A DNA stretch of 42,251 nucleotides, from the NCBI GenBank assembly GCA_016839815.1, contig JAEOTM010000154.1:1-42251 (forward strand), in the 5' to 3' direction. The translations under genes and the position numbers were made by a program. Source of the stretch: Candidatus Hodarchaeota archaeon. Its GTDB lineage: Archaea > Asgardarchaeota > Heimdallarchaeia > Hodarchaeales > Hodarchaeaceae. Below are positions 18,346 through 22,841 of this stretch, in pieces (position 1 is the first letter of the stretch; each line of letters opens with the position of its first letter). The notes beneath the pieces are model-generated. The model was not told the DNA's origin. It made no database searches and saw nothing but the letters and a program-made list of their open reading frames with translations.

Positions 18346-18486
18346 TATTGCCTTCTGAGACGAGTTCCACTAAAAAGGTATTGGTTTAGGAAACGTATTA
18401 AACTTAATGCTTAAAATCAAGATTAAAAGGTTCATTCTTTTACACGTCCAAAGACTTCGTATCACTCAAACGAAGAGGGTATTTCA

Positions 18487-19494
18487 GTGCTACAACAATT
18501 TATTGACGAAGAAATAATGAAAAATTTAGCCAATCAGCTAAATTCAGCAATTGAGGGCCTTGAAAGTCCAACGAAAGATCGGATTCGTGAGTTTATTCTT
18601 TCTACTAAAGGAAAACAATTACGTCCAGCCCTGATCGCCGTTACTACTAAACTTTTGACTCAAGACACAAACTCACAGGAATCACAATTAGCTCGTGCTT
18701 ATAGATTCGCAGTTGTGATCGAATTACTTCATAATATGACCCTAATTCATGATGATCTGATCGATAATGCACCAATTCGTCGTGGTAAAGATGCTTTTCA
18801 TATTAGATATGGTGCTGATCGGGCATTGCATGATGGTGATGTTCTTCACGCATATGCACTTACTCTCATCAAGGATGATCCCGCAGGACTTGAACTGGTA
18901 CTTGATTATGCTTATCAGGTAGGCCTAGGTAACGCGATAGAACTCGAAGATAGACTTGATCAAAATTTCGATTTTGAAATGGCAAGAATCATTAAGATCA
19001 TGGAATACAAGACTGCTGTTGTATTTGCAGGATGTGTAAGACTAGGATGCCTTGCTGCCAATCGTGAGGACTTATTTACTGAAGAATTGAATAAAGCCAT
19101 ATGCGCAGCTGGAATTGCTTTTCAGATCCAGGATGATTACCTTGACATTTTAGGAAATCCTGAAGAATTTGGGAAAATGCAATTTTGGGATATTCAAGAA
19201 TCGAAGAGAAATCTATTCCTTTATTTTTCAATGCAAACTTCTTCTTCTCCTAAAATCAAAGAAATTTATAATAAAGAGATCGGAAAGAAAAATAAGGAAG
19301 ATATTGAGATCGTCTTAGAAGCGTTTCGTGAGATACAAGATAAGGTCAAAGAAGTTCGAGATGAATACGCTAAACTAGCTATAGATGGCTTAAAGACTAT
19401 TCAAGCGAATATTGATCAAGATGATTATCAAGCTGAAGAATTAGTCGATTTCCTATTAATCTTGACTAAATATCTTATTGAACGTAGTAAATGA
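18487..19494 (+). CDS. Trans-polyprenyl diphosphate synthase (GGPP synthase-like)
   Basis: GKQLRP, FARM LIHDDLIDNAPIRRG, YKTA, SARM FQIQDDYLD, EFGK. Confidence 0.92.
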   Translation: MLQQFIDEEIMKNLANQLNSAIEGLESPTKDRIREFILSTKGKQLRPALIAVTTKLLTQDTNSQESQLARAYRFAVVIELLHNMTLIHDDLIDNAPIRRGKDAFHIRYGADRALHDGDVLHAYALTLIKDDPAGLELVLDYAYQVGLGNAIELEDRLDQNFDFEMARIIKIMEYKTAVVFAGCVRLGCLAANREDLFTEELNKAICAAGIAFQIQDDYLDILGNPEEFGKMQFWDIQESKRNLFLYFSMQTSSSPKIKEIYNKEIGKKNKEDIEIVLEAFREIQDKVKEVRDEYAKLAIDGLKTIQANIDQDDYQAEELVDFLLILTKYLIERSK

Positions 19495-19530
19495 ATAGAT
19501 ATTATTATCTACACAAACGGATTGGCTCAA

Positions 19531-20379
19531 ATGAGCAAACACAAAGATATTCATAAATATACAATTGAGTTTACTGAGAACTTTTGGATTAATTTATTAG
19601 AAGTAGCTGGACACGGTAACGTAAAACAATTCATAATACAGGCATTAAAAGTAGCTCTCGAAGCACGTACAATAAAATCATTAATCCTTTGTGGAGGAAG
19701 AGGAACTGGTTTTCGACCTTTATCGGTAGCAACGCCAGCAGTTATGCTTCCCATTGGTTATAAGCCGATCCTCGAATATTCTATTGACCTTTTAAGAAAA
19801 CATGCTTTAACTGAAATATTTTTGTCTGTAGGCTATAGAAAAGATCATATACAGCATCTATTCTCAGAGAAAGAGTTTTCAGGAGTAAATATTGGATTTA
19901 TATCGGAAGATGACCCTCTAGATACAGCGGGAGCCGTTTTAAATGCGAAAAAACAATTTAAGTCAACTTTTTTAGTGATGAATGGAGATTTAATTACAAA
20001 TGTTGATCTAAATTTATTTCTGGAATTTCATAGAACCGTTGTGAAAAAGGGGGGGATAGCCTCCATGTTTGTGTTAGAACATGAGAATAGTCAAGTGGAG
20101 ATGGATACGGAGGAAAATCAAATAAGAAACTTCGTAAACAGTAGTAAAAAAGGATTTAACTTTGTAAATGCTGGCGTGTACATCTTTGAACCAGAAATTT
20201 TTCCCTACATAGATAAACAGGTATCATCACTTGAGAGAGATATTTTTCCAGTATTAAGTAAGGAAGGATTACTGTATGGTTATCTACCAGGAACCCAAGT
20301 ATACTGGAACCATATTAATTCACCTGAAAAATATAAGGAAGGATGGGCTGATTTTCTTTCGGGAAAATTAGATTTTTAA
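19531..20379 (+). CDS. RHH-like N-terminal domain fused to a degenerate NDP-sugar pyrophosphorylase (nucleotidyltransferase)
   Basis: LILCGGRGTG...PIGYKPILEY, PLDTAGA, VMNGD, NAGVYIFEP and SLERDIFP give the NTP-transferase fold. The first ~45 aa have a strand-helix-helix pattern. Start is TTG 19522 or ATG 19531. Confidence 0.85.
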   Translation: MSKHKDIHKYTIEFTENFWINLLEVAGHGNVKQFIIQALKVALEARTIKSLILCGGRGTGFRPLSVATPAVMLPIGYKPILEYSIDLLRKHALTEIFLSVGYRKDHIQHLFSEKEFSGVNIGFISEDDPLDTAGAVLNAKKQFKSTFLVMNGDLITNVDLNLFLEFHRTVVKKGGIASMFVLEHENSQVEMDTEENQIRNFVNSSKKGFNFVNAGVYIFEPEIFPYIDKQVSSLERDIFPVLSKEGLLYGYLPGTQVYWNHINSPEKYKEGWADFLSGKLDF

Positions 20380-20408: not shown

Positions 20409-21953
20409 GTGGTAAACCGCCAAATGCGACGATTAAAAGGATTAGTATTCTTAATAGATATCGTAGCATTTGTGATACTATGCTTTATACCGTTTTATGT
20501 CGTAATAAACCTCATCAATATTTTTGATTCTTTCAATTCGCATGTAATATTCTTTAATCTAGTATTATTAATTGTAGAGACCTTTGGATTAATATTTTCA
20601 TATTATCTCGTGGAAATGATTGCTAGTTCAATTCTTTATCAAGGAGAAAAGAAAATTCCTGTGCTGAAAGGTGTTGAAGATACTTTTTTTAGCATAATTG
20701 TACCCTCACACGGCACAGAGTTCCCTATATTAGAAAAAACTCTTCGTGGTGCTCTCAACCTAGAATACAATAATTTTGAGCTAATTGTAAGTGATAATGG
20801 GAAAAATCAAGCAGTTACAGAAAAATTACAGAAATTTTGTACTCAAAAAGGAATTGTTTTTTATCATAAAAAAGATGAAAGAGGATTCAAAGCGGGAAAT
20901 ATAAACGCAGTTCTCAACTTTACGAAGGGAGATTATGTTGTAATCCTTGATTCAGATCATATACCAGTTCCTAGTCTTTTACAACAGTTCTCTTCTATAG
21001 TGAAAAATCCAAAAATAGGGTTCATACAAGCCAAGGTTTCTTATCGGAATGTTACTCGGTTATATCAAAAAGCTAATTCGATTCTCTATTCTCAATTTTA
21101 TGAAGTTATTGAATCTGCAAAAGACAGACGAGGGATGGTCTTATTTAACGGCACGACTGGTTGCTTTCGTAAATCCGTTCTAGAAGAGATAGGAGGATTT
21201 TCGGAAGACACTTTAATCGAAGATATTGATACTTCTATGCAAATTTTAGCACGAGGATATGAGGGCAAATTCATCAATTTTATTGGTTCTTATGGATTGG
21301 TTCCCGCAACCGCCAAGGCTCAAATATCACAATTATGGAGATGGACACATGGAGCGTGTAATATCTTGCGTATTAGACTACGCCTATTTGTATCTACTCC
21401 TCACATTGGTTGGTTCAAGAAATTCGAATTAATATTAAACACTATGGCTTTTTTTTCTGGAATAAGCGTTGTTTTCTTTTTCAGTATCCTGGTATTAATG
21501 CTAAATTTCAATATGGTGATTCTCAGACAATCAGTGATGGGATTCAATACAATCTATATAATGCCTCTACTTGTAAGTAGTTCCTATTCAATTATCGCTC
21601 TCCTTACAATTATTTGGGAAGAAAATGATGAACCCTTCCTCCTAAGAATGTTACATCTCATCCCCTTCTACATACTTTCTTTAGGATCATTTCTATTTCT
21701 AATTTCTGGAGTAATTGAGGGATTACTCCTACGCAACACTCCTGTTAGTGAAACTAGTGTGTGGGATAAACAGTTCAATGTTGTAAGAAGTTCAGTGTTT
21801 GCACTCATTTTTACAGCATTCATAATATTACTAGCAATACGTACTTTACCAAATGAATATTCATTTTTTATCCTCGGAGGAACCTTTCCATGGATTTTTG
21901 CTCCTTGTATTCTGATTTGGGAAGAGCTATTTCCTCCTAAAACAATTAATTAA
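20409..21953 (+). CDS. Processive GT2 glycosyltransferase (cellulose-synthase/BcsA-like), integral membrane
   Basis: Two N-terminal TMs, KAGN, DSD (DxD), FNGT, IEDIDT (TED-like), QLWRW (QxxRW), C-terminal TM bundle; no PilZ domain. Confidence 0.9.
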   Translation: MVNRQMRRLKGLVFLIDIVAFVILCFIPFYVVINLINIFDSFNSHVIFFNLVLLIVETFGLIFSYYLVEMIASSILYQGEKKIPVLKGVEDTFFSIIVPSHGTEFPILEKTLRGALNLEYNNFELIVSDNGKNQAVTEKLQKFCTQKGIVFYHKKDERGFKAGNINAVLNFTKGDYVVILDSDHIPVPSLLQQFSSIVKNPKIGFIQAKVSYRNVTRLYQKANSILYSQFYEVIESAKDRRGMVLFNGTTGCFRKSVLEEIGGFSEDTLIEDIDTSMQILARGYEGKFINFIGSYGLVPATAKAQISQLWRWTHGACNILRIRLRLFVSTPHIGWFKKFELILNTMAFFSGISVVFFFSILVLMLNFNMVILRQSVMGFNTIYIMPLLVSSSYSIIALLTIIWEENDEPFLLRMLHLIPFYILSLGSFLFLISGVIEGLLLRNTPVSETSVWDKQFNVVRSSVFALIFTAFIILLAIRTLPNEYSFFILGGTFPWIFAPCILIWEELFPPKTIN

Positions 21954-21962
21954 TTGACGATC

Positions 21963-22565
21963 TTAATCATTTAAGAAACGAAATCGACTTGCACCAATAA
22001 AATGAGCTATCCTAAGTGCTTCTGGAATTGTTCCAACTGTGGTGCATTTTTGTGTGAGTTGAGAAGCATCCTGAAGTGTGATTCCAGCAATCTGTAGAAA
22101 GAGGTGGGGGTTTTTTTGCACCAGTTGAGGTTCACCCGCCTTTTGAATCATCGACCAACGAACCTGAGCGTCATCAAAAACTTTTTCTAACGCAGAACGA
22201 ATTTTATCAAAATTGGGGTACTTTCGTAACACTACAATCACAGGAATATTTGTTTTTTTCCAGAGATGATGGATATCGATAATTCCAAATCCAGCGATAG
22301 TAATCCCTTGAAGGAATATGGCTCTGATTTGTGCTTTATGCGAACTGTCTAATATCATATCTGCTAAAACTTTGGTAGCGTTCGTATCATCTCTTTCCAG
22401 TTGATCTTGGATGATACCATCTACATATGCAGCTCCTTTCATGACTACTCCAAAAACAGGAATCAGTTCTTTTTTTTTCGAGAAACGATCAAATCCCCCA
22501 TCATCGATACCGATAATAGGGGTTTTTGATTTAATACCTCGCCACTGTCGGACTGATTTTAGCAC
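21963..22565 (-). CDS. DUF99 family protein (endonuclease V-like fold)
   Basis: IIGIDDGGF, QIRAIFLQGITIAGFGIID, PVIVV and GTIPEALRIAHFI motifs; GTG start with GAGGT upstream. Confidence 0.9.
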   Translation of the reverse strand: MLKSVRQWRGIKSKTPIIGIDDGGFDRFSKKKELIPVFGVVMKGAAYVDGIIQDQLERDDTNATKVLADMILDSSHKAQIRAIFLQGITIAGFGIIDIHHLWKKTNIPVIVVLRKYPNFDKIRSALEKVFDDAQVRWSMIQKAGEPQLVQKNPHLFLQIAGITLQDASQLTQKCTTVGTIPEALRIAHFIGASRFRFLND

Positions 22566-22586: not shown

Positions 22587-22772
22587 TCAATATGAATCAC
22601 GAGATTGGGCTATAAAGGTATTTCCACGAAGACTCCAGAGTTCATCCTTGAGCATGTCACGAATTGCGAACCTAATGGCTTCACTTCTGTTTGGATATCT
22701 ACCAGTCCTAACTAGCTCATCAAGACCACTTACCTGATCGTTTGGTAGATGCACTGTGATTAATTTCATCAT
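22587..22772 (-). CDS. CopG/RHH transcription regulator, CdrS/aCcr1-like
   Basis: MKLITVHLPNDQVSGLDELVRTGRYPNRSEAIRFAIRDMLKDELW carries the G-x-(Y/F)-P-N-R-S-E-A-I-R signature of the CdrS-like RHH family; GAGGTTG SD-like motif upstream of ATG 22772/22769. Confidence 0.88.
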   Translation of the reverse strand: MMKLITVHLPNDQVSGLDELVRTGRYPNRSEAIRFAIRDMLKDELWSLRGNTFIAQSRDSY

Positions 22773-22841
22773 TTTTTTTTCAACCTCTTTCAGTGTTATA
22801 CCTTTAATCACATTCTTTCGCTTTAAAATAAGCATAATTCT

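What the first reader, a model, noticed from the sequence alone, without database searches (positions are those of the whole stretch)
19522..20379. RHH domain fused to a catalytically dead-looking NDP-sugar pyrophosphorylase: candidate nucleotide(-sugar)-sensing transcription factor
Seen: the N-terminal ~45 aa (KYTIEFTENFWINLLEVAGHGNVKQFIIQALKVALE) follow a strand-helix-G-x-N-helix ribbon-helix-helix pattern. In the NTP-transferase domain the signature G-G-x-G-T-R-L-x-P-x-T-x3-P-K reads GGRGTGFRPLSVATPA, so both the Arg and the Lys are lost. The sugar-phosphate motif F-x-E-K-P reads FVNSSK and W-x-D-x-G reads WNHIN. The glycine loop and NGD are kept, and there is no left-handed beta-helix. Established: these residues are catalytic in RmlA/GalU/GMPPB-type enzymes, and eukaryotes use inactive paralogues of this fold as sensors or regulators (GMPPA, eIF2B gamma/epsilon). 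Inference: a pseudoenzyme ligand sensor wired to a DNA-binding domain, possibly regulating the adjacent glycan synthase.
Basis: partly seen in the sequence, partly recalled or inferred. Interest (0 to 1): 0.8.

Follow-up and report, generated by a model that had tools for sequence, protein, structure and literature searches.

The report
RHH regulator with dead sugar-nucleotide enzyme domain
This Hodarchaeales (Asgard archaeon) gene joins a small DNA-binding-type ribbon-helix-helix domain to a GDP-mannose-pyrophosphorylase-like domain that has lost its catalytic residues but is still strongly conserved. It is most likely a metabolite-sensing regulator of a three-gene lipid/glycan module, and it derives from a wider, uncharacterised family of enzyme-regulator fusions.

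Summary
The gene most likely starts at ATG 19531 rather than TTG 19522 and encodes 282 aa.

- **N-terminal domain (residues ~7-47):** predicted with good confidence as strand-helix-turn-helix. An all-against-all structure search returned almost only ribbon-helix-helix (RHH) proteins. A modelled homodimer forms the classic antiparallel ribbon.
- **C-terminal domain (residues 49-279):** an NTP_transferase fold closest to GMPPB, VTC1 and HddC, with no beta-helix. The PPi-binding Arg and Lys, the Glu-Lys-Pro motif and the second metal-binding Asp are replaced by G60, A70, N203-S204-S205 and H261.
- **Conservation:** the replacements are fixed in all 20 species-level orthologues and 62 distinct sequences. 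dN/dS is 0.02-0.10, so this is neither a sequencing error nor decay.

New here:
- RHH-NTP-transferase fusions are a broader unrecognised family, found in other Heimdallarchaeia, Nitrososphaerota, Bathyarchaeota and CPR bacteria. Some members score above the Pfam RHH_1 threshold, and most keep catalytic motifs.
- The dead clade is nested inside active-looking fusions. The PPi loop has eroded independently in other fused lineages.
- The order polyprenyl synthase, RHH-pseudoenzyme, BcsA-like GT2 is invariant. Orthologues of all three genes were missing together in two genomes.

DNA binding, the ligand and the operator remain inferences, and no operator was found. This is a new variant of known kinds (NikR/PutA-type regulators; GMPPA-type pseudoenzymes).

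The parts
19531..20379 (+). RHH-pseudo-NTP-transferase gene (282 aa plus stop). The ORF is open from TTG 19522, but ATG 19531 is the likely start.
   Evidence: ORF. Homologues of 281-284 aa start at the equivalent Met. dN/dS 0.02-0.10.
19549..19671 (+). Ribbon-helix-helix domain, residues 7-47: strand H8-F14, helix A 16-26, G27-H28-G29-N30 turn, helix B 31-47.
   Evidence: AF2 models. In the VIA-align wide search nearly all of the top 50 entries are RHH proteins, Z up to 5.5. The top seven Foldseek rows are NikR, ParD and TCP, but with E>1. Dimer model ipSAE 0.45 against controls 0.00, with 11-11' and 38-38' contacts. This is the most conserved part of the protein.
19675..20367 (+). NTP_transferase-fold domain (residues 49-279), GMPPB/VTC1/HddC-like, without a C-terminal left-handed beta-helix.
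   Evidence: Pfam PF00483, E 3.7e-25. Foldseek best hit 7d74_G, E 1e-21, TM 0.73. phmmer to PDB.
19693..19719 (+). Degenerate PPi-binding loop G55-G56-R57-G58-T59-G60-F61-R62-P63. The catalytic Arg position is G60 (19708-19710).
   Evidence: Alignment to GMPPB/VTC1. The clade pattern is GG[RKQ]G[TS][SG]F[RHGL]P.
19738..19740 (+). A70, at the position of the PPi-binding Lys (VTC1 Lys23).
   Evidence: A, P or S in all 62 clade sequences.
19987..19989 (+). D153 of N-G-D, the first metal/catalytic Asp (VTC1 Asp111), retained.
   Evidence: Invariant.
20137..20145 (+). N203-S204-S205, at the position of the Glu-Lys-Pro sugar-phosphate motif. Lost and hypervariable within the clade.
20305..20322 (+). 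W259-N260-H261-I262-N263-S264, which replaces W-x-D-x-G. H261 (20311-20313) sits at the second metal Asp and is invariant in the clade.
18487..19494 (+). Polyprenyl diphosphate synthase. First gene of the conserved three-gene unit, ending 36 nt before the RHH gene's ATG.
   Evidence: Pfam PF00348, E 2e-53. Synteny in all 20 orthologous loci.
20409..21953 (+). Membrane GT2, BcsA/CelA-like processive synthase with a Q-L-W-R-W motif and no PilZ domain. Third gene of the unit, 29 nt after the RHH gene's stop.
   Evidence: Pfam. phmmer to BcsA 7lby_A, E 6e-26. NCBIfam CelA, E 4e-42, below cut-off. Synteny.
18389..18402 (+). Conserved BRE/TATA-like element about 96 nt upstream of the polyprenyl synthase start. 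Likely the promoter of the unit; candidate region for an operator, none identified.
   Evidence: Conserved in most orthologous loci. Not enriched elsewhere in the window.

Best explanation
The gene encodes a homodimeric one-component regulator.
- **Shown by models only.** Two N-terminal ribbon-helix-helix domains pair into an antiparallel beta-ribbon, the standard RHH DNA-reading head.
- **Shown by sequence.** The C-terminal domain is a GDP-mannose-pyrophosphorylase-like Rossmann domain. It can no longer hold pyrophosphate or catalyse nucleotidyl transfer, because Arg, Lys, Glu-Lys-Pro and the second Asp are gone. It keeps the glycine loop, the N-G-D Asp, the base-contacting acidic residue (E126) and the sugar-side N-A-G.
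- **Inferred.** The domain still binds a nucleotide or NDP-sugar, most plausibly a GDP-hexose. It uses occupancy to change how the RHH dimer binds DNA, setting transcription of its own unit (polyprenyl synthase, itself, BcsA-like glycan synthase).
- **Shown by tree and motif tables.** It evolved from an enzyme-plus-RHH fusion that was probably a bifunctional enzyme/repressor like PutA, BirA or NadR. It then shed catalysis and became a pure sensor.
For: **RHH fold**
- AF2 gives a coil/strand at 1-15, then H16-26 and H31-47. pLDDT is 86 for the domain alone and 90 for the whole protein.
- In the search of 48,161 PDB representatives, nearly all of the 50 entries listed are RHH proteins. Examples: TacA1 Z 5.5, rmsd 1.9 over 45 residues; PutA52 Z 5.2, rmsd 1.9 over 42; also NikR, Arc, AmrZ, omega, ParG.

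**Dimer model**
- Score 0.45, best of 3 controls 0.00.
- In the tool's calibration this mark was reached by 20 of 30 proteins solved as homo-pairs and 1 of 23 solved as single chains. Those counts hold only roughly because my own alignment was used.
- The runs agree in at least 90% of contacts, and partner pLDDT is at least 74.
- Contacts 11-11', 13-9', 10-12' and 38-38' are those of an RHH ribbon dimer.
- Many RHH dimers are solved, so the pass shows likeness to them rather than proven binding.

**Conservation of the RHH domain**
- The exposed ribbon residues K9, T11 and E13 are invariant in the clade, and conservatively kept (K/R, T/S, E/D) in 33-45% identical fusions. The same positions vary among stand-alone mini-RHH relatives.
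- The RHH domain is the most conserved part of the protein.

**Support from related fusions**
- Related NTP-transferases carry an extension of the same length at the same position that reaches the Pfam RHH_1 threshold: P0211 26.6 bits, P0156 21.8 bits, cut-off 20.5.
- One ESM Atlas cluster with the same two-domain shape has RHH_1 in 18% of members.

**Loss of catalysis under selection**
- Motif replacements are mapped on solved GMPPB/VTC1.
- They are fixed in 20 of 20 species loci and in 62 distinct sequences.
- dN/dS is 0.02-0.10.
- The old EKP site is hypervariable, while W-N-H-I-N is invariant.
- The genome keeps paralogues with intact motifs.

**Evolution**
- The fused proteins form one clade. 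The dead clade (support 1.0) is sister to P0057/P0059, which keep R, EKP and D (support 0.98).
- The G-x-G-T-R loop is intact in 134 of 137 unfused homologues seen here, but in only 22 of 39 extended ones outside this clade.

**Module**
- Gene order is identical in 20 of 20 loci.
- Two same-genus genomes lack the gene, one of them a single-contig genome rated 96% complete. Both also lack orthologues of the GT2 and of the polyprenyl synthase.
Against: - No DNA-binding, ligand-binding or activity data exist.
- No conserved palindrome or repeat that could serve as an operator was found upstream of the unit or of the gene.
- The N-terminal domain itself gets no Pfam RHH hit. Profile-profile matches to true RHH sets are weak: E 0.0066 with probability 5.7%, and E 0.0012 with probability 19.5%.
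- E13 places an acidic side chain on the presumed DNA-facing side of the ribbon.
- Conserved basic residues near the old active site could in principle rescue some chemistry: R/K57, R62 and K206 (K in 84% of clade sequences).
- The intact-loop comparison is biased. The homologues were retrieved with queries that include eroded sequences, and related sequences are not independent.
Confidence: 0.5

Rival explanations
1. It is still an enzyme. The protein would be a divergent but active nucleotidyltransferase that supplies the activated sugar (or another activated phosphate ester) for the adjacent GT2. It would use substitute residues: R/K57 in the glycine loop, R62, K206 and H261 as a metal ligand. 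The RHH would add autoregulation, as in PutA or BirA.
For: - The fold, the glycine loop, N-G-D, E126 and N-A-G are kept.
- R/K57, R62 (95%) and K206 (84%) are mostly conserved, and H261 is invariant.
- The gene sits exactly where a sugar-activating enzyme would be expected, between a lipid-carrier gene and a glycosyltransferase.
- Sister fusions look active.
Against: - Four separate catalytic or PPi-binding elements are gone at once.
- The former Glu-Lys-Pro segment is hypervariable within the clade, and the loop tolerates G58K, R62H/G/L and R57Q. That is unlike an active site.
- 134 of 137 unfused homologues keep the loop.
- The protein reaches no NCBIfam equivalog cut-off.
Confidence: 0.2
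2. It is a protein-level regulator and not a transcription factor. The pseudoenzyme domain would act like GMPPA or KONJAC, binding and tuning an active pyrophosphorylase paralogue or the neighbouring BcsA-like synthase (which lacks a PilZ domain). The RHH would serve only as a dimerisation module, replacing the missing beta-helix domain.
For: - GMPPB-type enzymes dimerise through the beta-helix domain, which is absent here.
- Inactive paralogues of this fold regulate active ones (PMC9168903; PMC11228364 abstract).
- There is tight operon linkage with the GT2, and orthologues of both genes are missing together in two same-genus genomes.
- No operator was found.
Against: - To my knowledge, nearly all characterised RHH domains bind DNA.
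- The solvent-exposed ribbon residues and the G-x-N helix cap are invariant, which a pure dimerisation role does not require.
- Stand-alone relatives of the domain are 47-91-aa mini-proteins, typical of RHH repressors.
Confidence: 0.2
3. It is an artefact or a decaying gene. The odd residues would reflect sequencing or assembly error or recent pseudogenisation, and the N-terminal extension would be a mis-called start.
For: The window comes from a draft genome of 206 contigs, rated 89.5% complete with 7.8% contamination.
Against: - The same replacements occur in 20 independent species genomes and 62 distinct sequences.
- dN/dS is 0.02-0.10 with saturated dS.
- There is no alternative start codon downstream.
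- The extension is conserved to 33% identity.
Confidence: 0.01

Closest known systems
GMPPA (human) and KONJAC/KJC (Arabidopsis): non-catalytic paralogues of GDP-mannose pyrophosphorylase
   Same: Same Rossmann-like NTP-transferase fold; the closest solved relatives are GMPPB/VTC1, and GMPPA and KJC2 also hit. Like them, it is a catalytically inactive copy retained under selection, alongside active paralogues in the same genome. The presumed role is sensing the product.
   Different: - GMPPA keeps the G-T-R and P-K residues (from memory, not tested here).
- GMPPA has a C-terminal beta-helix domain and works by binding GMPPB.
- The protein here has no beta-helix, has lost R, K, EKP and D, and carries an RHH domain.
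- It is not an orthologue. The dead clade arose inside an archaeal RHH-fused lineage.
NikR and PutA: RHH domain fused to a ligand-binding or enzymatic domain
   Same: N-terminal RHH followed by a larger sensor or enzyme domain. NikR and PutA52 are among the best structural matches of the N-terminal domain (Z 4.8-5.2). The proposed logic is the same: ligand or substrate state controls operator binding.
   Different: The partner domain is an NTP-transferase fold, not an ACT-like nickel domain or a proline dehydrogenase. The Pfam RHH models do not recognise the N-terminus. DNA binding is untested.
BirA and NadR: enzyme-repressor fusions
   Same: They are a model for the presumed ancestral state. 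The active-looking fused homologues (P0058, P0144, P0211, family f3) combine a DNA-binding domain with a nucleotidyl-transfer enzyme.
   Different: BirA and NadR use HTH domains and different enzyme folds, and both remain active enzymes. The window's protein has lost the catalytic residues.
Short NDP-sugar pyrophosphorylases without a beta-helix (HddC, MurU)
   Same: Same single-domain size and fold. HddC 6jq8: E 4e-18, TM 0.86 by target. MurU 4y7u: TM 0.86.
   Different: Those are active enzymes with intact motifs and no N-terminal RHH. The window's protein reaches none of their NCBIfam cut-offs.
eIF2B gamma/epsilon
   Same: Non-catalytic use of the NTP-transferase fold in a regulatory protein (from memory).
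   Different: They did not appear among the listed sequence or structure hits. They carry beta-helix and other domains and have no DNA-binding domain. Nothing here points to a specific relationship.

Membership tests
Ribbon-helix-helix (MetJ/Arc/CopG) superfamily | Strand-helix-turn-helix topology of about 45 residues | tested here: met
   AF2 gives an extended 8-14, H16-26 and H31-47/49. In the VIA-align wide search nearly all of the top 50 entries are RHH proteins, Z 3.5-5.5.
Ribbon-helix-helix (MetJ/Arc/CopG) superfamily | Homodimer through an antiparallel two-stranded ribbon with helix B-helix B' packing | tested here: met
   Model only. ipSAE 0.45 against best control 0.00; contacts 11-11', 13-9', 10-12', 38-38'. 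The pass may reflect likeness to the many solved RHH dimers.
Ribbon-helix-helix (MetJ/Arc/CopG) superfamily | G-x-S/T/N turn capping helix B | tested here: met
   G27-H28-G29-N30 lies before helix B. G27 and G29 are nearly invariant.
Ribbon-helix-helix (MetJ/Arc/CopG) superfamily | Score above threshold with a Pfam RHH model | tested here: not met
   None of 14 members scanned hit any RHH family. hhalign to RHH sets is weak: E 0.0066 and 0.0012. Homologous fusions P0211 and P0156 do pass RHH_1.
Ribbon-helix-helix (MetJ/Arc/CopG) superfamily | Sequence-specific DNA binding | not testable with these tools
   No operator was found by comparative analysis.
NTP_transferase (PF00483) sugar-1-phosphate nucleotidylyltransferases | Family HMM above the gathering score, and the fold | tested here: met
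   89.4 bits against a cut-off of 21.2. Foldseek E 1e-21 to GMPPB.
NTP_transferase (PF00483) sugar-1-phosphate nucleotidylyltransferases | G-x-G-T-R-(L/M)-x-P-L-T loop with the catalytic Arg, and the downstream P-K Lys | tested here: not met
   Arg is G60 and Lys is A70. This is fixed in the clade.
NTP_transferase (PF00483) sugar-1-phosphate nucleotidylyltransferases | Glu-Lys(-Pro) sugar-phosphate motif and two metal-binding Asp | tested here: not met
   EKP is N203-S204-S205 and is hypervariable. The second Asp is H261. The first Asp (D153) is kept.
NTP_transferase (PF00483) sugar-1-phosphate nucleotidylyltransferases | Pyrophosphorylase activity | not testable with these tools
   Needs an enzyme assay.
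GMPPA-type regulatory pseudo-pyrophosphorylase | C-terminal left-handed beta-helix domain that mediates assembly with the catalytic paralogue | tested here: not met
   The protein ends after the Rossmann-like domain. There is no Hexapep or GMPPB_C hit.
GMPPA-type regulatory pseudo-pyrophosphorylase | Binds the NDP-sugar product without turnover | not testable with these tools
   Only inferred, from the retained E126, N-G-D and N-A-G.
RHH-NTP-transferase fusion family (uncharacterised, defined here) | RHH of about 45 aa directly N-terminal to a short NTP-transferase domain, forming one clade | tested here: met

The most novel reading that the evidence does not exclude
A previously unrecognised class of one-component transcription factors uses a sugar-nucleotide pyrophosphorylase as its sensor. 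[quoted passage not shown] It would be a DNA-wired analogue of eukaryotic GMPPA that controls an isoprenoid-carrier plus cellulose-synthase-like glycan module. The same enzyme-to-sensor erosion has happened repeatedly across archaeal and CPR-bacterial members of the family.
Probability: 0.4. Interest if true: 0.7.

Novelty: new variant of a known kind. Interest (0 to 1): 0.6.

Why it matters
- **A cheap, testable candidate.** Archaeal transcription regulators that read metabolite state are poorly known, and in Asgard archaea almost none has been studied. This gives a candidate with a defined presumptive regulon of three genes and a short list of likely ligands (GDP- or UDP-hexoses).
- **A natural series for pseudoenzyme evolution.** The family runs from active-looking RHH-enzyme fusions, through partly eroded forms, to a fully dead form. 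That makes it a good system for asking how an enzyme becomes a sensor.
- **An annotation error.** These proteins are currently named "NDP-sugar synthase" or "nucleotidyltransferase family protein". That overstates their enzymology in metabolic reconstructions of Hodarchaeales glycan and lipid biosynthesis.

Tried and rejected
- **Pfam on the N-terminal 50 residues** of this protein and 13 relatives found no RHH family, only noise.
- **Profile search of the N-terminus against PDB sequences** gave only spurious Rossmann G-x-G-N matches.
- **Foldseek on the 50-residue model** gave no hit with E<1, although the top rows are RHH or TCP proteins.
- **ESM Atlas feature search** on residues 1-50 returned nothing usable.
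- **The first tree script** did not return. It was redone with FastTree.
- **Operator search:**
  - The short gap before the gene (34-49 nt in most species) has no conserved repeat.
  - The palindrome TAGATA-N4-TATCTA at 19497-19512 is absent from the four closest orthologous loci, so it is treated as chance.
  - Upstream of the polyprenyl synthase only a BRE/TATA-like block is conserved. A GGTTT-N3-AAACC-like inverted repeat overlapping it is not consistently present.
  - K-mer counting found no repeated box.
  - The promoter motif is not enriched in the window.
- **Structured leader RNA idea:** no Rfam hit, and the fold z-score is -0.5.
- **Profile-profile comparisons to genuine RHH sets** align in the right register but are statistically weak. 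I use them only as consistent, not as proof.
- **A specific link to eIF2B gamma/epsilon** was considered, but nothing in the hits supports it.
- **Decay or sequencing error** is rejected.
Full report
**What is there**

The ORF at 19522-20379 (+) is real. Names attached to near-identical database proteins place the window in Hodarchaeales/Heimdallarchaeia, an Asgard group.
- Homologues are 281-284 aa and begin at the Met that corresponds to ATG 19531.
- No in-frame start codon lies between that Met and the glycine loop.
- So the roughly 48-residue N-terminal extension is part of the protein, and 19531 is the likelier start.
- Pfam places NTP_transferase (PF00483) on residues 52-273 of the 285-aa reading (E 3.7e-25) and finds nothing on the N-terminus.
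- The protein ends after the Rossmann-like domain. There is no Hexapep or GMPPB_C beta-helix.

**The catalytic motifs**

phmmer against PDB sequences aligns the protein to Leishmania GDP-mannose pyrophosphorylase, human GMPPB and Arabidopsis VTC1 at E 1e-24 to 1e-30. Foldseek on the AF2 model (pLDDT 90.4) ranks the same enzymes first, followed by HddC and MurU. In those alignments:
- G-T-R-L-R-P reads G-T-G-F-R-P (Arg to G60).
- T-P-K-P-L reads T-P-A-V-M (Lys to A70).
- F-V-E-K-P reads F-V-N-S-S (positions 203-205).
- W-M-D-I-G reads W-N-H-I-N (Asp to H261).

The VTC1 structure paper calls Glu195-Lys196, Asp111 and Asp219 catalytically critical. It shows Arg13 and Lys23 holding pyrophosphate (PMC9168903). 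Of these, only the Asp111 equivalent (D153 in N-G-D) survives. The acidic residue that reads guanine N1 in VTC1 aligns with E126, and the sugar-side N-A-G (213-215) is kept.

**Not an error and not decay**

A search of 60 related genomes found one orthologue in 19 of 21 other genomes of the same genus-level group.
- All 20 loci (own locus included) carry the same replacements.
- In 62 distinct clade sequences G60 is only G or S, A70 only A, P or S, and H261 is invariant.
- The old Glu-Lys-Pro segment has become hypervariable. The new Y-W-N-H-I-N-S block is essentially invariant.
- Pairwise dN/dS is 0.02-0.10, with synonymous sites saturated even between proteins about 90% identical.
- The genome also holds paralogues with intact G-x-G-S-R-L, P-K, E-K-P and W-x-D-x-G motifs.

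This is an old, selected, non-canonical protein.

**The N-terminal domain is a ribbon-helix-helix**

Sequence methods alone fail. No Pfam family is found for 14 relatives, and a profile search against PDB sequences gives only noise. Structure-level evidence is consistent.
- AF2 predicts an extended segment, helix 16-26, a G-H-G-N turn and helix 31-47/49, with pLDDT 86 for the domain alone.
- A search that aligns the model to all 48,161 PDB cluster representatives lists 50 entries, almost all of them RHH proteins. They include TacA1, CopA, PutA52, AmrZ, NikR, ORF56, Arc, omega and ParG. Z is 3.5-5.5 and rmsd about 2 Å over 41-46 residues.
- Those Z values are small in absolute terms, as expected for 45 residues. 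The uniformity of the list is what carries the weight.
- The few Foldseek rows are NikR, ParD and TCP domains, but with E>1.

A two-copy model of residues 1-50 passed the tool's test:
- Score 0.45, best of 3 controls 0.00.
- In the tool's calibration the mark was reached by 20 of 30 proteins solved as homo-pairs and 1 of 23 solved as single chains. These counts hold only roughly because my own alignment was used.
- The runs agree in at least 90% of contacts, and partner pLDDT is at least 74.
- The lowest-error contacts (11-11', 13-9', 10-12', 14-8', 38-38') are those of an antiparallel ribbon with helix B packing on helix B'.
- RHH dimers are abundant in the PDB, so this shows likeness rather than proven dimerisation.

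**A wider family gives sequence-level support**

A profile of the N-terminus against 1.8 billion representatives found only 17 proteins. They are the fused family plus 47-91-aa stand-alone proteins with the same pattern.

A second homologue search with distant fused members turned up many 273-300-aa NTP-transferases. Their N-terminal extension is the same length, sits at the same position, and has the classic archaeal RHH signature (K-R-x-S-x-T-L-D ... D-G ... N-R-S).
- Two of these pass the Pfam RHH_1 gathering score: P0211 at 26.6 bits and P0156 at 21.8 bits, against a cut-off of 20.5.
- One is named as coming from a Bathyarchaeota archaeon.

An ESM Atlas shape search found two clusters aligned over residues 6-281 of the model.
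- One has 63 members, all archaeal, most often Nitrososphaerota.
- The other has 151 members, mostly CPR bacteria, and 18% of them carry RHH_1.

Profile-profile comparison of the window's N-terminal family with these canonical RHH N-termini aligns strand to strand and helix to helix. It is weak, at E 0.0012 and probability 19.5%.

**Evolution**

Within 400 Asgard genomes the domain occurs in only two families, one copy per genome. It is in the window's own family (19 of 21) and one other Heimdallarchaeia family (28 of 31).
- The second family keeps G-A-R-L-K-P, I-P-K and W-I-D-V and lies in a different gene neighbourhood.
- In a FastTree phylogeny all fused proteins group together.
- The dead clade (support 1.0) is sister to metagenomic P0057/P0059 (support 0.98). 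Those two keep Arg, Glu-Lys-Pro and Asp but already have Lys replaced by Ala.
- Other fused lineages have eroded the G-x-G-T-R loop on their own. Examples are the P0060/P0062/P0124/P0136-140 group, the P0066/P0197/P0221 group, P0125 and P0127.
- Among homologues collected here, the loop is intact in 134 of 137 proteins without an extension, and in 22 of 39 with one, outside the Hodarchaeales clade.

This last count is biased by how the sequences were retrieved and by shared ancestry, so I treat it as suggestive only.

**Genomic context**

Polyprenyl synthase, the RHH-pseudoenzyme gene and a GT2 lie in that order on the same strand in all 20 orthologous loci. The gaps in the window are 36 and 29 nt.
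- The GT2 is a BcsA/CelA-like processive synthase. It matches E. coli BcsA at E 6e-26, carries a Q-L-W-R-W motif and has no PilZ domain.
- Two same-genus genomes lack the RHH gene. One is a single contig rated 96% complete.
- Both also lack orthologues of the GT2 (best match 26% identity). For the polyprenyl synthase, one has no match at E<=1e-10 and the other only a 34%-identical paralogue.
- A sister family of the same order has the polyprenyl synthase orthologue (51% identity) without the other two genes next to it.
- The sister-group protein P0057 follows a UbiA prenyltransferase. P0058 neighbours a PIG-L deacetylase.

The association with isoprenoid and glycoconjugate genes is therefore older than the loss of catalysis.

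**Mechanism proposed**

- **Shown:** the domain composition, the conserved loss of catalytic residues, purifying selection, and module linkage.
- **Modelled:** the RHH fold and the ribbon dimer.
- **Inferred:** the RHH dimer binds an operator. The dead pocket still binds a nucleotide sugar, most likely a GDP-hexose. Two points favour that ligand: the nearest relatives are mannose-1-phosphate and heptose-1-phosphate guanylyltransferases, and E126 is retained. Occupancy would modulate transcription of the three-gene unit.

One argument favours DNA binding over mere dimerisation. The solvent-facing ribbon residues K9, T11 and E13 and the helix-B cap are invariant in the clade and conservatively kept in distant fusions. 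The same positions vary among stand-alone relatives.

I could not find the operator.
- Only a BRE/TATA-like block about 96 nt upstream of the polyprenyl synthase start is conserved.
- A palindrome just upstream of the gene is not conserved.
- There is no sign of a structured leader.

**Rivals**

- A still-active, rewired enzyme. Conserved R/K57, R62, K206 and H261 leave this open; I put it at about 0.2.
- A GMPPA-like protein-level regulator that uses the RHH only to dimerise, at about 0.2.
- Artefact or decay is excluded.

**Comparison with the known**

The protein works like NikR or PutA (an RHH plus a sensor or enzyme domain) and like GMPPA or KONJAC (a dead pyrophosphorylase used as a sensor). 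It is a member of neither. It lacks the beta-helix of GMPPA-type proteins, and its RHH is not recognised by the Pfam models. Full-text searches found no paper describing RHH-NTP-transferase fusions. Database names are generic, such as "NDP-sugar synthase" and "nucleotidyltransferase family protein".

I rate it a new variant of known kinds, of moderate to good interest. The earlier scan note on the three-gene unit (e1-5649262) agrees with my synteny result, which I tested independently.

Noticed in passing
window 20409-21953 (+): The downstream GT2 is a BcsA/CelA-like processive synthase with an N-terminal TM pair, D/D/D and Q-L-W-R-W motifs and C-terminal TM helices, but no PilZ domain. Its product and its regulation in an Asgard archaeon are unknown. 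Other Heimdallarchaeia carry 28-32% identical paralogues, two of them in tandem in genome G028.
   Followed up: partly
window 18346-18486: The divergent promoter region between the CAAX-protease/zinc-ribbon gene (-) and the polyprenyl synthase (+) holds a conserved block of about 35 nt, A-rich/TATA-like on both sides (GGAAACGTATTAAA at 18389-18402). It lies about 96-128 nt before the GTG start across species, which implies an unusually long leader for an archaeal mRNA. No Rfam hit and no significant fold.
   Followed up: partly
window 19497-19512: A perfect 6-bp inverted repeat, TAGATA-TTAT-TATCTA, lies directly after the polyprenyl synthase stop and 19 nt before ATG 19531. It is not conserved in the four closest orthologous loci.
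   Followed up: yes
window 22587-22835 (-) and 21963-22565 (-): A genuine Pfam RHH_1 (CopG) protein of 81 aa lies just upstream of an Endo_dU/DUF99 gene. The pair, and the whole order TFB, CAAX protease, polyprenyl synthase, RHH-NTP, GT2, Endo_dU, RHH, class II RNR, is conserved in a distant relative (L008).
   Followed up: partly
L007 (CP070760.1, 949510-962355) and L026: In one complete Heimdallarchaeota genome the polyprenyl synthase and GT2 flanking the orthologue are called as shorter products (206 and 296 aa). Only the C-terminal and N-terminal parts respectively match. Part of our copy of this region reads N, so I cannot tell whether the genes are truncated there.
   Followed up: no
proteins P0128-P0135: These are stand-alone 47-91-aa proteins with the same H-x-[YF]-x-[IL]-x-[FIL] ... 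W ... G-x-G-N ... F-I pattern as the N-terminal domain. They look like a small, Pfam-unrecognised RHH subfamily. Only one gives a weak RHH_5/RHH_1 hit.
   Followed up: partly
P0057 contig (ENA ERZ23498361) and L081: The nearest active-looking relatives of the dead clade sit next to a UbiA prenyltransferase (44 nt upstream, same strand) and a PIG-L family deacetylase. This points to a long-standing link between this fusion family and isoprenoid-linked glycoconjugate synthesis.
   Followed up: no
genomes G009 and G008 (same genus): Two genomes, one a single contig rated 96% complete, lack the RHH-pseudoenzyme gene and also lack orthologues of its two neighbours. G009 gave no polyprenyl synthase match at E<=1e-10 with this query, which is odd for an archaeon and was not pursued.
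   Followed up: partly
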